A DNA stretch of 64,000 nt from assembly GCA_003281405.1 (NCBI GenBank), contig QCCD01000001.1, positions 68,866-132,865 of the forward strand. Reading direction: 5' to 3'. The position numbers were made by a program, and so were the translations under genes. Of this stretch, positions 22,469-27,302 are shown piece after piece (the stretch's first letter is position 1; each line of letters begins with the position of its first letter). The notes below the pieces were generated by a model that was not told where the DNA came from, searched no databases, and saw only the letters and a program-made list of their open reading frames with translations. The DNA is from Prochlorococcus sp. AG-347-K16. GTDB taxonomy: Bacteria; Cyanobacteriota; Cyanobacteriia; PCC-6307; Cyanobiaceae.

Positions 22469-22702
22469 ATGAGGTTTTTCTTCTTTTTATTTTTCGGGAT
22501 TTTTGTAGGTCTTTATTTATCATGGCCCGGTTTAGTAATACCAGAAAATTGGAGATGTTTTAATCAAATTATTGCAAAATCTGCAGAAGATAAAATTTCT
22601 TTAAAAGCTGCATTGGAGATTTCACCCAGTTATTTTCTAAAGGCTAAGAATAAAAAGACGACTTCCAAAATAAGAATCGTAGCAGATGCCTGTTTTCGTT
22701 AA
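22469..22702 (+). CDS. Hypothetical membrane-anchored protein with two Cys
   Basis: 77 aa; N-terminal TM, WRCF...ADACFR. Confidence 0.7.
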   Translation: MRFFFFLFFGIFVGLYLSWPGLVIPENWRCFNQIIAKSAEDKISLKAALEISPSYFLKAKNKKTTSKIRIVADACFR

Positions 22703-22734
22703 TATGTTGAGTGATTAAGTATGACTACTAAATA

Positions 22735-23538
22735 ATGAATAATAACATAAGATTTGAATTATCATTTAAAAATATTTCTCAGTTACACAATAAACTTAAT
22801 TTCTGCAGATTAAATAATATAAAAAATATCAATATTCCATGTAAAGGACTTATAAAGAAGGATTTATTTAATTCAACTATTAAATATATATCTAAAAACT
22901 ATAATGAATTTAATGTGACCTATCACTATAGTCTTTATCATCAATATTCAAAAAATAAAGAAAAATCGTATAAGGATTTTTTAGATTTTGTTAAAAGATC
23001 TCAGACTAATAAAAATTATGAAATTCTTCTTGTGTCTGGATCAAATAAGAGAAAAAACTTTAACTCAGTTGATGTATTAGCTTATTTAAAAAATGAAAAA
23101 AATATAAAAGTTAAATTAGGTATAGCTTACAATCCATATTTGAAAAAATATTATAATATTTCTTCAGAAAGAGAAAGGTTCGAAAGAAAAATTTCGACTG
23201 GATTAATAAATTCAATTTGGTTTCAGTATGGTACAGATATTAAAGTTCTTCACAATGAGGTGACTTATCTTAAAAACGTAGCAAAAGAAGAAAAATTTAA
23301 TTTATTTGGAAGTTTATTTATTCCTTCTAAACAATTTATAGCACGGTTTAAATTTCGTCCTTGGAAAGAGGTCTATATATCTGAAAAGTGTTTATACGCG
23401 TTAGATAATTTTTTTGATTTCACAAACGATTTAGTTAGTTTTTACAAAAAAAATAATATTACACCTGTAATTGAATCTGATTTTTCATCAACAGAGAAAC
23501 TTGATTCTGTTTATGGTTTTTTAGAAAATGAAAGATAA
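22735..23538 (+). CDS. Divergent MTHFR-like (FAD-linked oxidoreductase fold) protein
   Basis: LLVSG, LGIAYNPY, ERERFERKISTG..SIWFQYGTD and GSLFIP recall MetF segments (AxNP, E...L.kK..aGA.f..TQ..fD). Confidence 0.55.
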   Translation: MNNNIRFELSFKNISQLHNKLNFCRLNNIKNINIPCKGLIKKDLFNSTIKYISKNYNEFNVTYHYSLYHQYSKNKEKSYKDFLDFVKRSQTNKNYEILLVSGSNKRKNFNSVDVLAYLKNEKNIKVKLGIAYNPYLKKYYNISSERERFERKISTGLINSIWFQYGTDIKVLHNEVTYLKNVAKEEKFNLFGSLFIPSKQFIARFKFRPWKEVYISEKCLYALDNFFDFTNDLVSFYKKNNITPVIESDFSSTEKLDSVYGFLENER

Positions 23539-23557
23539 TTTTATTCAATAGGTAATT

Positions 23558-24724
23558 ATGAAAGGTGATTGTAAATATGACTTAATAATAGTAGGTGGAG
23601 GAATATCTGCTTGTGTCTTCGCTTCGAAGTATCTTAAAAAAAATATTACAACAAAAATTGCATTAGTTGAAATTGGCCGTGGACTTGGAGGGAGATCAAG
23701 TACAAGAATAAGCAAAAGATTTAAAGGATGGAAACTAAACCATGGGGCTCCAAACTTTAATATATCTAACAGTAAAAATAATCTTCTATTAAAAAGTTAT
23801 ATTGATGAATTATTGGAAAATAAATTTATTAAAATTGACGACTCTGATAAATTTTTTCTAAATCAAGATTTAAATTTTGAGAAACAAAAAATATCACAAT
23901 TTTCTTGCGGGGTTAATTATCTATCATTAGATTCTATGAGTGAATTATCGCAAAAAATAATTGAGTCTAATAATTTAAAGGGGAAAATTGATTTTTACTT
24001 TGAAACTTTAATAGTTGATTTGAAGTTTAATTATGATGAGTGGATACTTACATCAAAAAATGGAGATAAATTTACATCTAAATATCTTATTTGTTCAACT
24101 AATTTATTGTTACATAAAAGGTCAATGAATATATTAAACATAAATCAAATTCCATTAAGAAAAGCTATTCCTTTAAATTATGATAAAAAAATAGATTTAC
24201 TATTAAATTTCTTAGAAGAACAAACATTTATTCCTAGGTTAACTTTTTTAATATATACAAATGAAAATTATAGTTATAAAGATTTTTATTCTAAAAAACA
24301 AAGGTATTTTTATTTAGAAAAAAATTTAGAAAAAAAATTTAGATTTGAAAGAATTATTTTTCAGCATCAAGATAATAATAGATTAGGTATTGTAATACAT
24401 TCAAAAAATATAGAGTTCATTAATTCTTTTTTAAATTCAAAAGATGAAGAAGTTTTTAAGCAAAAAATAATTGCGAATTTCAATAAACTCTTTGAAGGTA
24501 ATTCTGTAGTAAATAAATTAACTTTTGATGAAAAAATTTCTATCATGAAATGGAGAGCTTCTCAACCTTCTGGCATTGCCGTTCCATTATCTTTACAAGT
24601 TAGTAGAAAATATAGAATTGGATTTTGCGGAGACTGGTTTGAAGGTGACGGATTTGGCAGAATTGAAGGCTCAATATTAAGTGCTTTAATATTAGAAAAA
24701 AAAATTAATGATTTAATTAAATAA
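23558..24724 (+). CDS. NAD(P)/FAD-dependent oxidoreductase, renalase-like
   Basis: IVGGGISAC, E.GRGLGGRSSTR, NHGAPNF, KWRASQP, FCGDWFEG.G..RIEGSILSA. Confidence 0.85.
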   Translation: MKGDCKYDLIIVGGGISACVFASKYLKKNITTKIALVEIGRGLGGRSSTRISKRFKGWKLNHGAPNFNISNSKNNLLLKSYIDELLENKFIKIDDSDKFFLNQDLNFEKQKISQFSCGVNYLSLDSMSELSQKIIESNNLKGKIDFYFETLIVDLKFNYDEWILTSKNGDKFTSKYLICSTNLLLHKRSMNILNINQIPLRKAIPLNYDKKIDLLLNFLEEQTFIPRLTFLIYTNENYSYKDFYSKKQRYFYLEKNLEKKFRFERIIFQHQDNNRLGIVIHSKNIEFINSFLNSKDEEVFKQKIIANFNKLFEGNSVVNKLTFDEKISIMKWRASQPSGIAVPLSLQVSRKYRIGFCGDWFEGDGFGRIEGSILSALILEKKINDLIK

Positions 24725-25309
24725 TTTTTTCATAATGTTATCTATATCAGATTTTTTTTCAATAATTAATCTATTTGTATTATTTTTTATGCAATTGGGT
24801 TCCCATTTTTCGTAATAAATGTCCCAGGATTTTAAGAAATCATTTTCAGCTTGTTTTTTATCCTTTCCCCTTTCTTTCATATCCCTTTGAACAACTCTTT
24901 TCATGCACTCATTTTTTTTTGTTTTTATTTCTAAAAAATAATAATCTTTAATATTTATAGTGCTGCAGAATTCTTTGGCAAAAATACCTTCAACAATTAA
25001 AAAACTAATATTATTTGTTTTATTTAAGATATTTTGAACTATTTTCTTTTCGAAATTATAAAAACGATCGCGGACTGAAATTCCATTCTCATAAATAAAT
25101 TCAAAATCTTTTTTGAATAGTTTGTTATTAAAACTCATACTTTTATCAAAAAAACCTTCCACAAATTTTGATAGTAATTTACTTATTAACCCAGTCTTAT
25201 AATAGTTGTCGGTACTTAAAACAATACCATTTTTATTTTTTTTAATTATTTGATTTGATAAAGTTGTTTTACCACTTCCAGAAGGTCCACTTATAAAGAT
25301 AAGCTTCAT
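24713..25309 (-). CDS. Uridine-kinase-like P-loop kinase
   Basis: ISGPSGSGKTT, STDNYY, LIVEGIFA, RVVQRDMKERG. Confidence 0.8.
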   Translation of the reverse strand: MKLIFISGPSGSGKTTLSNQIIKKNKNGIVLSTDNYYKTGLISKLLSKFVEGFFDKSMSFNNKLFKKDFEFIYENGISVRDRFYNFEKKIVQNILNKTNNISFLIVEGIFAKEFCSTINIKDYYFLEIKTKKNECMKRVVQRDMKERGKDKKQAENDFLKSWDIYYEKWEPNCIKNNTNRLIIEKKSDIDNIMKKLFN

Positions 25310-25575: not shown

Positions 25576-25926
25576 ATGATTTCTAAATTTCTAAGCAAAC
25601 TAAAATCAATTCTATTTAAAAGTGCAGCATCTACTGAAATTCCTTTGAAGAAAGAAAAAAAAGCACCTAAGTCTGCAAAAACTTCAAAAACCAAAACCAA
25701 AAGCAAAACCAAAACCAAAACCAAAACCAAAACCAAAGCTGTTGGTTCGAAGGAAAATATTGAAACTTTAAAGACACTTCCAGGCGTTGGAGCAAAAAGC
25801 GCAAAAGCTTTGTATGAGGCTGGATTTAAAACAACAAAGGCAGTCATTGCTGCTGATGAAAAAGATCTTCTTGCTGTATCAGGAGTTGGAATAAATCTTG
25901 TTAAGAAGCTTAAAAAGCTTAAATAG
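25576..25926 (+). CDS. Helix-hairpin-helix domain protein with (KT)n linker
   Basis: TLPGVGAKSA and VSGVGINL twin HhH motifs. Confidence 0.85.
   Translation: MISKFLSKLKSILFKSAASTEIPLKKEKKAPKSAKTSKTKTKSKTKTKTKTKTKAVGSKENIETLKTLPGVGAKSAKALYEAGFKTTKAVIAADEKDLLAVSGVGINLVKKLKKLK
25687..25737 (+). repeat. Hexamer microsatellite (AAAACC)n, 8 units with one AAAAGC variant
   Basis: Seen directly; encodes KTKTKSKTKTKTKTKTK in frame. Confidence 0.95.
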
Positions 25927-26264: not shown

Positions 26265-26723
26265 CTAATTTTCTGCCCACTCCACAAATCTTTTTTTATT
26301 ACTTTTTATATCTTGTAATGATTCAAAATAATATTTTTCCCAATTATCTTTAGGCAGTCCAAGAAATAACATTAGATTTAATGGGTATTGATTGCTATCA
26401 GAACAATTTCTAAAATCATCCCTGAATAAAAAGATTTCCTTTTTTAAAGCAATCGCGATACCTAATTCAACCATTACCCCTTCATCTGGTGGATTTCCAT
26501 TAACAATCGCAAAAATACAATCACATTCCTTTAAATCATGGAAATTACTCCTTGCAACGTCATATGCCCACTCACTTTCTTTTTCTATTAATGGTTTTAC
26601 TCTCTCAAAAGGTTCAAATACTTCTACATTTAAATCATTGAAGATTTTAATAAATTCATTTAAGAGGGTTTTAGTTTGCTTTGAAAATCCATATGGATTA
26701 GCCAAATATAATTTCTTTCTCAA
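26265..26723 (-). CDS. Nucleoside 2-deoxyribosyltransferase family
   Basis: LYLANPYGF, D...CDCIFA, DEGVMVELGIAIAL, NLML. Confidence 0.9.
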   Translation of the reverse strand: MRKKLYLANPYGFSKQTKTLLNEFIKIFNDLNVEVFEPFERVKPLIEKESEWAYDVARSNFHDLKECDCIFAIVNGNPPDEGVMVELGIAIALKKEIFLFRDDFRNCSDSNQYPLNLMLFLGLPKDNWEKYYFESLQDIKSNKKRFVEWAEN

Positions 26724-27115
26724 CTCAAACCTCTTTTTTTGATGTACTCTTCGCGGTCACTTTTTGAAGTTAAAGTATTTTCCCAAGGGAAAACTATCCA
26801 TTGGTTTTTTTTTGATATATGTACTGTATTCCACCATGTAGGTTTCATTTTACTAAATAATACAAAAAACATTGCTCCTTCAATATTCTTGAAAGTCTTC
26901 AATGTAATGCCTGTTTCATAAACATCATCTACTATTAGAGAATTCTTTATTGGTTTAGAAATTAATTTAATTTTTAATTTATGGCTCAGTGCTACAGCAA
27001 GACATAATCCACCTCGAGGAACTCCATATATACCAGAGAACTCCTTAAACTTACATTTATTAGCGATTTGTTCTACACTCCTATCGAATTCCCTCCAAGT
27101 AAAATAACTTATCAT
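26720..27115 (-). CDS. Small type I phosphoribosyltransferase (purine PRT-like)
   Basis: ATG at 27115; GVPRGGL and LIVDDVYETGITL PRPP loop, WIVFPWE; overlaps the NDT start by 4 nt. Confidence 0.9.
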   Translation of the reverse strand: MISYFTWREFDRSVEQIANKCKFKEFSGIYGVPRGGLCLAVALSHKLKIKLISKPIKNSLIVDDVYETGITLKTFKNIEGAMFFVLFSKMKPTWWNTVHISKKNQWIVFPWENTLTSKSDREEYIKKRGLS

Positions 27116-27116
27116 C

Positions 27117-27302
27117 TTAATTTTCGTTTTTTTCAGTTGTAGTAGCGTAATTTGAAGCAATTACACTTAAAAGTGCTACTACTTGCTCATTTGGACAATT
27201 AGTATTTTTTTTTAAATTTTCACATTCATTTATTATATTGGCATATGTATTCTCGACAATTCCGTTCATTTGATCGATGCTAAAAGAATATGGTTTATTC
27301 AT
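27117..27302 (-). CDS. Conserved hypothetical protein
   Basis: 61 aa; stop lies 1 nt from the PRT start. Confidence 0.75.
   Translation of the reverse strand: MNKPYSFSIDQMNGIVENTYANIINECENLKKNTNCPNEQVVALLSVIASNYATTTEKNEN

What the first reader, a model, noticed from the sequence alone, without database searches (positions are those of the whole stretch)
22469..25309. Candidate undescribed cofactor/nucleotide repair module: MTHFR-fold protein, renalase-like oxidoreductase, uridine-kinase-like protein
An AT-rich block encodes four things: a 77-aa two-Cys membrane protein; a 267-aa protein with MetF-like FAD-barrel segments but no obvious MetF catalytic context; a renalase-like flavoprotein 19 nt downstream; and a convergent uridine-kinase-like P-loop enzyme overlapping it by 12 nt. 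Renalases oxidise the toxic 2- and 6-dihydro-NAD(P) isomers (established). I know of no pathway linking these three enzyme types. My hypothesis is a metabolite damage-control or salvage system for photo-damaged pyridine, pterin or nucleoside compounds. This is the strongest new-system candidate in the window.
Basis: partly seen in the sequence, partly recalled or inferred. Interest (0 to 1): 0.7.

Follow-up and report, generated by a model that had tools for sequence, protein, structure and literature searches.

The report
Photolyase-linked MTHFR-like barrel beside renalase-like gene
In a high-light Prochlorococcus genome, an unnamed enzyme with the fold of methylenetetrahydrofolate reductase sits next to a renalase-like flavoprotein and a uridine-kinase-like kinase; the three are not a conserved pathway, but in diatoms and haptophytes the first enzyme's family is fused to a DNA photolyase/cryptochrome, which points to an undescribed helper of light-driven DNA repair or light sensing.

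Summary

- **267-aa protein:** a confident (βα)8 barrel. Its 50 best PDB matches are all MTHFR, and profile-profile comparison with MetF gives 95% probability.
- **388-aa protein:** closest to bacterial and human renalases.
- **198-aa protein:** a divergent Udk/PRK-family kinase.

The "module" reading is only partly supported.
- The genes are adjacent only in the high-light genus.
- In the sister low-light-I-like genus all three are dispersed.
- The flavoprotein occurs in 127 of 151 picocyanobacteria, mostly without the other two.
- Within the high-light genus the three genes decay independently.
- The 77-aa ORF belongs to a pan-Prochlorococcus family.
- The kinase is convergent, so it cannot share a transcript with the others.

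The new lead is the barrel. It belongs to a family with no Pfam or NCBIfam model (427 clusters, mostly algal). In diatoms and haptophytes it forms the N-terminal domain of one class-III-like photolyase/cryptochrome subfamily, with every family-defining residue conserved. Among 185,579 prokaryotic species a pattern scan found it only in Prochlorococcus and two CPR bacteria. Every prokaryotic carrier examined also has photolyase.

I read the barrel as a pterin/NAD(P)H-linked redox partner of photolyase. Its function is untested.

The parts
22469..22702 (+). 77-aa small membrane protein with an N-terminal hydrophobic helix and two Cys. It is a neighbour, not a partner of the enzymes.
   Evidence: ORF; no family hit. 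Homologues occur in 49 of 151 genomes, including genera g4, g8 and g16 that lack the barrel, and there are paralogues elsewhere. The copy upstream of the barrel carries stop codons in seven g1 genomes.
22735..23538 (+). 267-aa MTHFR-related (βα)8 barrel, a member of a family with no Pfam or NCBIfam model. In diatoms and haptophytes this family is the N-terminal domain of a photolyase/cryptochrome.
   Evidence: AlphaFold model. Foldseek top 50 are all MTHFR. hhalign against a MetF alignment gives Prob 94.6-95.4%, E 7e-8 to 6e-9, with a control at 0.1%. The representative search finds 427 clusters. Fusions to PF00875/PF03441 are shown. All family residues are conserved in the fused forms.
23558..24724 (+). 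388-aa renalase-like FAD/NAD(P)-binding oxidoreductase (JGI name: predicted NAD/FAD-dependent oxidoreductase).
   Evidence: PF13450 hit. The best PDB hit for the profile is human renalase 3qj4, E 5.9e-10. The top eight Foldseek hits are renalases, TM normalised to target 0.76-0.82. Present in 127 of 151 genomes.
24713..25309 (-). 198-aa divergent Udk/PRK-family P-loop kinase. It is convergent with the flavoprotein gene and overlaps it by 12 nt.
   Evidence: PF00485 E 2.5e-11. NF004018 scores 67 bits against a cut-off of 180, and TIGR00235 57.5 against 220. The best PDB hit is UCK2, E 1.2e-5, with the LSTDNYY/LSQDSFY motif aligned. Found only in g1 and g6.
26265..26723 (-). Nucleoside 2-deoxyribosyltransferase-family gene. 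In the low-light-I-like genus its orthologue lies directly upstream of the barrel gene. Listed as context only.
   Evidence: PF05014 E 7e-29. The orthologue L039:5419-5889 is 56% identical and ends 85 nt before the barrel gene on the same strand.

Best explanation
This is not one dedicated pathway. It is a clade-specific juxtaposition, in high-light Prochlorococcus, of three separately inherited accessory genes that go with life in bright light.

(1) The 267-aa protein is a remote homologue of methylenetetrahydrofolate reductase. It keeps the catalytic Glu on strand 1 and the pterin/NAD(P)H-contacting Gln. It lacks an acidic residue at the position aligned with MTHFR Asp120 (the position is Ser, Gly or Thr in the sequences tabulated). 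It is not the housekeeping MetF, which the genome encodes elsewhere. The same domain, with every signature residue intact, is the N-terminal half of one photolyase/cryptochrome subfamily in diatoms and haptophytes. I therefore infer that it works with a photolyase-family flavoprotein. The most likely role is a pterin- or NAD(P)H-linked redox enzyme that either services the folate (MTHF) antenna or keeps the catalytic flavin reduced.

(2) The 388-aa protein is a renalase-family flavoprotein. Its likely role is oxidising aberrant dihydronicotinamide (or similar) species, and it acts independently of the barrel.

(3) The 198-aa protein is a Udk-family kinase with an altered base-recognition position. 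It is transcribed on its own.

Shown: the folds, remote homology, fusions, distributions and lack of conserved linkage. Inferred: every biochemical activity and the partnership with photolyase.
For: **Fold and homology.**
- AlphaFold and Foldseek results.
- hhalign of the family against MetF: 95% probability. Family E8 aligns with the MetF catalytic Glu, Q164 with the TQ-motif Gln, and K152 with the LKRK Lys.
- PMC11094777 identifies exactly this Glu and Gln as the shared catalytic and pterin-binding residues of MTHFR, Mfr and Mer.
- The genome has a canonical MetF elsewhere, at 145 bits.

**Fusion.**
- 12 of 20 longer homologues scanned carry PF00875, with or without PF03441, after the barrel. 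Two further cluster members do as well.
- Named sources include Odontella aurita, a Bacillariaceae MAG and an Isochrysis transcriptome, so the fusions lie in single transcripts.
- All signature residues are identical in fused and free forms.
- The fused photolyase part is closest to the class III CPD photolyase 4u63 and to plant CRY1/2.

**Distribution.**
- 64 loci among 185,579 species: 62 Prochlorococcus and 2 CPR.
- All 44 barrel-bearing picocyanobacteria have photolyase, and both CPR genomes do.
- All 12 photolyase-less genomes lack the flavoprotein (127/139 against 0/12, raw Fisher p 1e-11).

**No module.**
- The genes are dispersed in g6.
- Independent decay in g1.
- The CPR genomes lack the flavoprotein and the kinase.
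Against: - No activity, cofactor or interaction has been tested.
- The fused algal photolyase parts are 46-52% identical to each other, so the fusion is probably one old event, not repeated independent evidence.
- About 95 photolyase-bearing Synechococcus and Cyanobium genomes lack the barrel, so photolyase does not need it.
- The main Prochlorococcus photolyase is the 8-HDF class I type (1owl/1tez, E 1e-143), not the MTHF-binding type found in the fusions. The second photolyase-family gene is absent from most g6 genomes that keep the barrel.
- The phyletic associations are confounded by ancestry. The barrel and kinase occupy two genera, and the photolyase-less genomes are all reduced low-light lineages.
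- Barrel and flavoprotein are 19 nt apart on one strand, and a metatranscriptome contig spans the junction. They may therefore be co-transcribed and could cooperate in high-light strains.
- The MTHFR fold does not prove FAD binding, because mycobacterial Mfr is flavin-free (PMC11094777).
Confidence: 0.5

Rival explanations
1. One reading: barrel, renalase-like oxidase and kinase together form one damage-control or salvage route for a photodamaged pyridine, pterin or nucleoside compound. High-light Prochlorococcus has brought them together because they act on the same metabolite.
For: The order is kept across the whole high-light genus, down to a lineage with only 41-51% identity in these proteins. 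Barrel and flavoprotein are 19 nt apart, and an RNA-derived contig crosses the junction. Barrel and kinase share exactly the same two-genus distribution. One homologue fuses a P-loop NTPase_1 domain to the barrel. An NDT-family gene neighbours the barrel in g6 and lies 2.7 kb away here. All three genes are missing from the photolyase-less low-light genomes.
Against: The conserved order sits inside a block that is syntenic over 16 kb anyway. The three genes are dispersed in g6. The flavoprotein occurs in 84 genomes without the other two. G127 has a clean deletion of the flavoprotein with barrel and kinase kept, and pseudogenes arise one gene at a time. The kinase is convergent, so it is not in the same transcript. 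The CPR genomes carry the barrel alone.
Confidence: 0.15
2. The barrel is a true folate enzyme of one-carbon metabolism: a second, specialised methylene- or methyl-THF oxidoreductase. It could be flavin-independent like Mfr, or reverse-acting like the Sphingobium type. Under this reading the fusion to photolyase only reflects supply of 5,10-methenyl-THF as antenna pigment, and the flavoprotein and kinase are unrelated neighbours.
For: The catalytic Glu and the pterin-binding Gln shared by MTHFR, Mfr and Mer are nearly invariant and invariant in the family. Divergent MTHFR types with new roles have been described recently (PMC11868366, listed).
Against: No acidic residue sits at the position aligned with Asp120, which binds pterin N3 and the exo-NH2. 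The Prochlorococcus photolyase is the deazaflavin (8-HDF) type. Methenyl-THF is an ordinary FolD product that needs no special enzyme. There is no Pfam MTHFR hit, and identity to MTHFR structures is 10-15%.
Confidence: 0.2
3. The barrel acts on nucleosides, nucleotides or nucleic acid, for example as a flavin-dependent reductase/oxidase of damaged or modified pyrimidines. It would then belong with the nucleoside-salvage genes around it (Udk-like kinase, NDT-like, PRT-like). The fusion to photolyase would reflect a shared DNA or pyrimidine substrate.
For: The barrel is directly downstream of the NDT-family orthologue in g6. The Udk-like kinase and an NDT-PRT operon lie within 4 kb here. In the SR1 genome the barrel follows the tRNA 2-thiouridylase gene mnmA. 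Photolyases bind pyrimidine dimers.
Against: No nucleic-acid-binding domain or motif was found. The conserved Glu/Gln pair is the pterin-reductase signature. The neighbourhoods differ in every lineage, so each adjacency may be chance. The divergent high-light lineage L031 lacks NDT and PRT but keeps the barrel.
Confidence: 0.1

Closest known systems
Methylenetetrahydrofolate reductase MetF/MTHFR (Pfam PF02219; PDB 1b5t, 1zp3, 5ume, 6fcx)
   Same: Same (βα)8 barrel (TM 0.66-0.73). Profile-profile homology at 95% probability. The strand-1 catalytic Glu, the Gln of the TQ motif, the Lys of helix 5 and the overall motif order are conserved.
   Different: Sequence identity is 10-15%. There is no hit to the Pfam model or to PDB sequences. 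The Asp120 equivalent is absent. The genome has a separate canonical MetF. The family has its own invariant FRPW and NPY motifs. It is fused to photolyase in algae, which is unknown for MTHFR.
Flavin-independent methylene-H4F reductase Mfr and F420-dependent Mer (PMC11094777)
   Same: These are divergent barrels that share only the catalytic Glu near the N-terminus (Glu9, Glu6) and the Gln (Gln177, Gln178) with MTHFR. That is the pattern seen here (E8, Q164).
   Different: No direct sequence or structure comparison was run. Both act in C1 metabolism of actinobacteria or methanogens and have no photolyase association.
Renalase (human 3qj4; Pseudomonas 3kkj, 4zcc, 5krq)
   Same: Best structural and best profile match. 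A two-domain FAD/NAD(P)-binding fold, an N-terminal GxGxxG followed by a GGR motif, and a C-terminal GD motif.
   Different: Identity is 14-17%. The protein is about 60 residues longer. There is no curated family hit beyond the Rossmann segment. Substrate-site residues were not checked and activity is unknown.
Uridine-cytidine kinase (Udk, UCK2; TIGR00235, NF004018)
   Same: P-loop, the DxxY catalytic motif, the FD ribose-contact motif, the EGI strand and the RD...RG lid all align with UCK2.
   Different: Scores reach about a third of the NCBIfam cut-offs. The position that aligns with the base-reading His of UCK2 is Lys (residue role recalled from memory). Found only in two Prochlorococcus genera.
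Class III CPD photolyase and plant-like cryptochromes (A. tumefaciens PhrA 4u63; diatom CryP)
   Same: This is the photolyase-family branch to which the algal fusion partners of the barrel are most similar.
   Different: The window encodes no photolyase. The genome's own photolyases are a class I 8-HDF type and a divergent second member, on other contigs. The papers I read do not describe the N-terminal barrel of the algal proteins.

Membership tests
MTHFR (PF02219) | Eight-stranded βα barrel of the FAD-linked oxidoreductase type | tested here: met
   AlphaFold pLDDT 87.9. The Foldseek top 50 are all MTHFR, TM 0.66-0.73.
MTHFR (PF02219) | Matches the curated family model above its gathering score | tested here: not met
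   No PF02219 hit at E<=0.1, while the genome's real MetF scores 145 bits. The family profile finds no PDB sequence.
MTHFR (PF02219) | Catalytic Glu (E. coli Glu28) and pterin/NADH-contacting Gln (Gln183) | tested here: met
   hhalign places E8 on the MetF Glu and Q164 on the TQ-motif Gln. E8 is conserved in at least 90% and Q164 in at least 90% of 48 diverse members, and both in every fused form checked. Roles are taken from PMC11094777.
MTHFR (PF02219) | Asp120 equivalent that binds pterin N3 and the exo-NH2 | tested here: not met
   The aligned triplet is S101-G102-x103. Position 103 is Ser, Gly or Thr, never acidic, in the sequences tabulated.
MTHFR (PF02219) | Bound FAD and NAD(P)H:CH2-THF oxidoreductase activity | not testable with these tools
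   Needs purified protein. Flavin-free relatives (Mfr) exist, so the fold alone is not decisive.
Renalase | Renalase-type two-domain flavoprotein fold with an N-terminal dinucleotide-binding motif | tested here: met
   PF13450 at residues 11-75. The top eight Foldseek hits are renalases, E 1e-19 to 8e-17. The profile's best PDB hit is 3qj4, E 5.9e-10.
Renalase | Oxidation of 2- and 6-dihydro-NAD(P) and conserved substrate-site residues | not tested
   I did not map active-site residues, and activity needs an assay.
Uridine kinase (TIGR00235 / NF004018) | Score above the curated equivalog cut-off | tested here: not met
   57.5 bits against 220.3, and 67.1 against 180.
Uridine kinase (TIGR00235 / NF004018) | P-loop, catalytic Asp motif and lid arginines | tested here: met
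   GPSGSGKTT at residues 8-16. LSTDNYY aligns with LSQDSFY and RDMKERGKD with RDISERGRD of UCK2.
Conserved gene cluster or operon (the proposed module) | Co-localisation and co-inheritance of the members across lineages | tested here: not met
   Adjacent only in genus g1 and dispersed in g6. Distributions are 44, 127 and 45 of 151 genomes. Losses are independent. The kinase is on the opposite strand.

The most novel reading that the evidence does not exclude
The 267-aa barrel family is a dedicated, previously unrecognised accessory enzyme of the photolyase/cryptochrome system. It would be a flavin- or pterin-dependent oxidoreductase that regenerates or loads the folate antenna, or that reduces the catalytic FAD in the dark with NAD(P)H. 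In diatoms and haptophytes it is built into the photoreceptor or repair enzyme. In Prochlorococcus it is free-standing, probably after a gene transfer between algae and the ancestor of the high-light and low-light-I clades.
Probability: 0.3. Interest if true: 0.8.

Novelty: new variant of a known kind. Interest (0 to 1): 0.55.

Why it matters
Photolyases and cryptochromes are among the best-studied flavoproteins. How cells keep their catalytic FAD reduced and their antenna pigment loaded is still largely unknown. A conserved enzyme domain welded to a photolyase/cryptochrome in diatoms and haptophytes, and present as a free gene in the most abundant phototroph on Earth, gives a concrete and cheap test: express, purify, assay. 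It would also explain part of the gene set that separates surface-dwelling from deep Prochlorococcus. For annotation, it gives a first fold and family assignment to roughly 1,600 to 1,700 "hypothetical protein" clusters (at 90% identity) that have no Pfam or NCBIfam model. It also warns against reading the high-light gene order as an operon-encoded pathway.

Tried and rejected
**Searches that gave nothing**
- Pfam and NCBIfam on the barrel: no hit.
- phmmer and a family profile against PDB sequences: no hit.
- hhalign of the family against the single own MetF sequence: no signal. A 23-sequence MetF alignment was needed.
- Viral contigs: no relative of the barrel.
- Promoter and terminator scan: no more sites than in shuffled sequence, and no terminator.
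- Literature searches on photolyase with renalase, on MTHFR-photolyase fusions, and on CryP or diatom N-terminal extensions: no description of this domain.
- Earlier findings of this scan, by sequence and by words: nothing relevant.

**Leads that failed**
- Flavoprotein fused to something in Cyanobium-like genomes: the 600-870-aa open frames are a high-GC artefact, with only a Rossmann hit starting at residue 148.
- The 134-aa upstream gene as a conserved partner of the flavoprotein: not homologous to the gene upstream of the flavoprotein in g6.
- The SR1 photolyase hit seemed to share coordinates with the barrel locus: blastn found no overlap with the barrel locus, so it is a different contig.

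- Both profile searches of the 5.8-billion-protein set returned almost only Prochlorococcus in the 120 rows listed. They could not show fusions or the distribution of the flavoprotein outside picocyanobacteria.
Full report
**1. What is there.**
The window is from a high-light Prochlorococcus (1.57 Mb assembly, GC 0.24-0.36).
- 22469-22702(+), 77 aa.
- 22735-23538(+), 267 aa.
- 23558-24724(+), 388 aa, starting 19 nt after the previous stop.
- 24713-25309(-), 198 aa, convergent and overlapping the flavoprotein gene by 12 nt.

Contigs from four marine metatranscriptomes cover the whole stretch. One contig crosses the junction between the 267-aa and 388-aa genes. Contig data cannot exclude DNA carry-over, and the reads come from related strains.

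**2. The 267-aa protein.**
It has no Pfam, NCBIfam or PDB sequence match. A 16-sequence alignment gave a confident AlphaFold model (pLDDT 87.9, pTM 0.88) with eight β-α units. Its 50 best Foldseek matches in the PDB are all methylenetetrahydrofolate reductases from E. coli, Haemophilus, Neisseria, Thermus, yeast, Chaetomium and human (E down to 1.7e-8, TM 0.66-0.73, 10-15% identity).

Homology is also detectable at profile level. The comparison used 48 diverse family members against 23 cyanobacterial-phylum MetF sequences.
- hhalign gives 94.6% (local, 195 columns, E 7e-8) and 95.4% (global, 240 columns).
- The control against the flavoprotein alignment gives 0.1%.

The alignment places family residues on MetF as follows:

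| Family residue | MetF position |
|---|---|
| E8 | catalytic Glu |
| H64 | His of the HLTC-type motif |
| K152 | Lys of LKRK |
| Q164 | Gln of the TQ motif |
| S101-G102-x103 | R-G-D |

The Asp120 equivalent is therefore missing. PMC11094777 shows that this Glu and this Gln are the residues common to MTHFR, flavin-free Mfr and F420-dependent Mer. It also shows that Asp120 binds the pterin N3 and exo-NH2. The protein is thus a remote MTHFR relative with the core catalytic pair kept and one pterin contact changed. It is not the housekeeping enzyme, because a canonical MetF (145 bits) lies on another contig. Whether it binds FAD cannot be decided from sequence.

**3. The family and its fusion.**
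An exhaustive search of 1.84 billion representatives found 427 clusters (268 at E<=1e-10). Close relatives are all Prochlorococcus. The distant ones come from several sources:
- contigs with eukaryotic neighbours (ICAT, Translin);
- algal transcriptomes (Neomeris, Odontella, Isochrysis);
- a Patescibacteria MAG.

Of 20 longer homologues scanned, 12 carry a DNA-photolyase α/β domain after the barrel, with the FAD-binding domain too where the sequence is complete. Two further cluster members do the same. One homologue instead has an N-terminal NTPase_1 domain.

The fused proteins are single ORFs on transcripts, so they are not gene-calling artefacts. Thirty-two of the 37 signature positions tabulated, including R6, E8, H64, S66, A131, N133, P134, E145, R148, K152, Q164, G166, G192, S193, P197, F207, R208, P209, W210, Y237 and E247, are the same in all twelve photolyase-fused forms as in the Prochlorococcus protein. 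The other five differ in only one or two of them.

The photolyase halves are 46-52% identical to each other. They are nearest to the class III CPD photolyase 4u63 and to plant CRY1/2. This looks like one old fusion kept in at least two algal phyla. It is a Rosetta-stone link, but a single one. I found no description of this N-terminal domain in the papers I could search.

**4. Distribution in prokaryotes.**
A pattern scan of 185,579 species genomes returned 64 loci: 62 Prochlorococcus, one Patescibacteria and one SR1. The scan is limited to two peptide patterns.

Counts in 151 picocyanobacterial genomes:

| Gene | Genomes with a match | Where |
|---|---|---|
| Barrel | 44 | genera g1 and g6 only |
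| Kinase | 45 | same two genera, plus one marginal hit |
| Flavoprotein | 127 | 14 of 25 genera |
| 77-aa family | 49 | includes genera lacking the others |
| Photolyase domain | 139 | 17 of 25 genera |

The 12 genomes without photolyase are all small low-light-type genomes. They lack the barrel, the flavoprotein and the kinase. Raw Fisher tests give p 1e-11 for flavoprotein against photolyase and 0.02 for barrel against photolyase. These ignore shared ancestry and are indicative only.

Both CPR genomes with the barrel have two photolyase-family genes each, but no detectable flavoprotein or kinase. A quick tree, without support values shown, makes the Prochlorococcus sequences one clade next to sequences from eukaryote-type contigs. 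That fits a single acquisition, direction unproven.

**5. The 388-aa protein.**
It has a Rossmann-type NAD_binding_8 segment only. A five-sequence profile hits human renalase best in the PDB (3qj4, E 5.9e-10; bacterial renalases 3kkj and 4zcc more weakly). The AlphaFold model (pLDDT 83.3) matches bacterial and human renalases first (E 1e-19 to 8e-17, TM to target 0.76-0.82), ahead of nicotine, polyamine and monoamine oxidases. Public names are "NAD(P)-binding protein" and "predicted NAD/FAD-dependent oxidoreductase". "Renalase-like" is therefore right for fold and family. The activity is inferred.

**6. The 198-aa protein.**
It is a PRK/Udk-family P-loop kinase, but at a third of the uridine-kinase cut-offs. 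Against UCK2 the catalytic DxxY motif, the FD motif and the lid align. The position aligned with the base-contacting His is Lys (residue roles recalled from memory). It is not an ordinary Udk, and its substrate is open.

**7. Is it a module?**
Within g1 the order 77-aa, barrel, flavoprotein, then the convergent kinase is universal, even in a lineage with only 41-51% identity in these proteins. That lineage is syntenic with the window over 16 kb, so order alone says little. Notably, these four genes are the least conserved of the block (neighbours 58-88%).

In g6 the genes are scattered:
- The barrel lies at 0.72 Mb, just downstream of the orthologue of the window's NDT-family gene.
- The flavoprotein lies at 0.10 Mb.
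- The kinase lies at 0.97 Mb.

Decay is gene by gene:
- In G127 the flavoprotein is cleanly missing between barrel and kinase.
- G084 and G042 have flavoprotein pseudogenes.
- G054 has a kinase pseudogene.
- G003 has one stop codon in the barrel.

The 77-aa copy next to the barrel carries stops in seven genomes. The kinase cannot be co-transcribed with the other genes. Flavoprotein neighbourhoods in Synechococcus are unrelated. I conclude that the juxtaposition is specific to the high-light clade and not evidence of a shared pathway. Barrel and flavoprotein may still be co-transcribed there.

**8. Reading.**
The best-supported account has three parts:
- The barrel is a member of a new photolyase-associated branch of the MTHFR superfamily.
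- The neighbour is a renalase-family flavoprotein, common to light-exposed picocyanobacteria.
- The kinase is a clade-restricted Udk-like enzyme.

For the barrel I favour a redox role tied to the photolyase cofactors, either handling of the folate antenna or NAD(P)H-driven flavin reduction. The reasons are the kept Glu/Gln pair and the fusion partner. The main objections are:
- The Prochlorococcus photolyase is of the 8-HDF type.
- Most photolyase-bearing Synechococcus lack the barrel.
- There is probably only one fusion event.

**9. Verdict.**
The interesting residue is the barrel family and its photolyase fusion, which is a new variant of a known enzyme superfamily with a directly testable function.

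Noticed in passing
window 26265-27160 (-) and L039:5419-6819: The NDT-family gene of the window's PRT-NDT pair has a 56%-identical orthologue in the low-light-I-like genus. That orthologue lies directly upstream (85 nt, same strand) of the barrel gene. A divergent high-light lineage (L031) lacks NDT and PRT altogether.
   Followed up: partly
window 22469-22702 (+): The 77-aa membrane-protein family is present in Prochlorococcus genera that lack barrel, flavoprotein, kinase and photolyase. It has paralogues elsewhere in many genomes. The copy upstream of the barrel is interrupted by stops in seven high-light genomes.
   Followed up: partly
P0261 (512 aa, metagenomic): One homologue fuses an N-terminal THEP1-type NTPase_1 domain (PF03266, E 3e-36) to the barrel. 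This is a second, different fusion partner.
   Followed up: no
L049:4851-6771 (SR1 MAG, code 25) and L043:4728-6228 (Patescibacteria MAG): In the SR1 genome the barrel gene follows mnmA (tRNA 2-thiouridylase) on the same strand. In the Patescibacteria genome a 248-aa ORF with no family hit overlaps its end. Both of these roughly 1-Mb genomes carry two photolyase-family genes.
   Followed up: partly
window 22469-25309 compared with L031:7734-10570: In the 16-kb block syntenic with a divergent Prochlorococcus lineage, these four genes are the least conserved (41-51% identity against 58-88% for neighbours). This suggests relaxed or diversifying selection.
   Followed up: no
L031:5789-7135: The divergent lineage has a sodium:neurotransmitter-symporter (SNF) gene inserted between the S51 peptidase gene and the 134-aa gene. 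The window has no such gene there.
   Followed up: no
window 25576-25926 (+): A 116-aa protein has a Lys/Thr/Ser-rich low-complexity stretch (KTKTKSKTKTKTKTKTK) followed by a tandem helix-hairpin-helix domain (HHH_5, E 1e-11). It is divergent from the kinase gene. The 93-aa ORF on the opposite strand is probably an artefact of the repeat.
   Followed up: no
G000:C6:45762-46127 (L047:1486-2982): The genome's second photolyase-family gene is divergent (best PDB hit Synechocystis CRY-DASH, E 2e-38). It is missing from several high-light genomes and from most low-light-I-like genomes, which have only one PF00875 match.
   Followed up: partly
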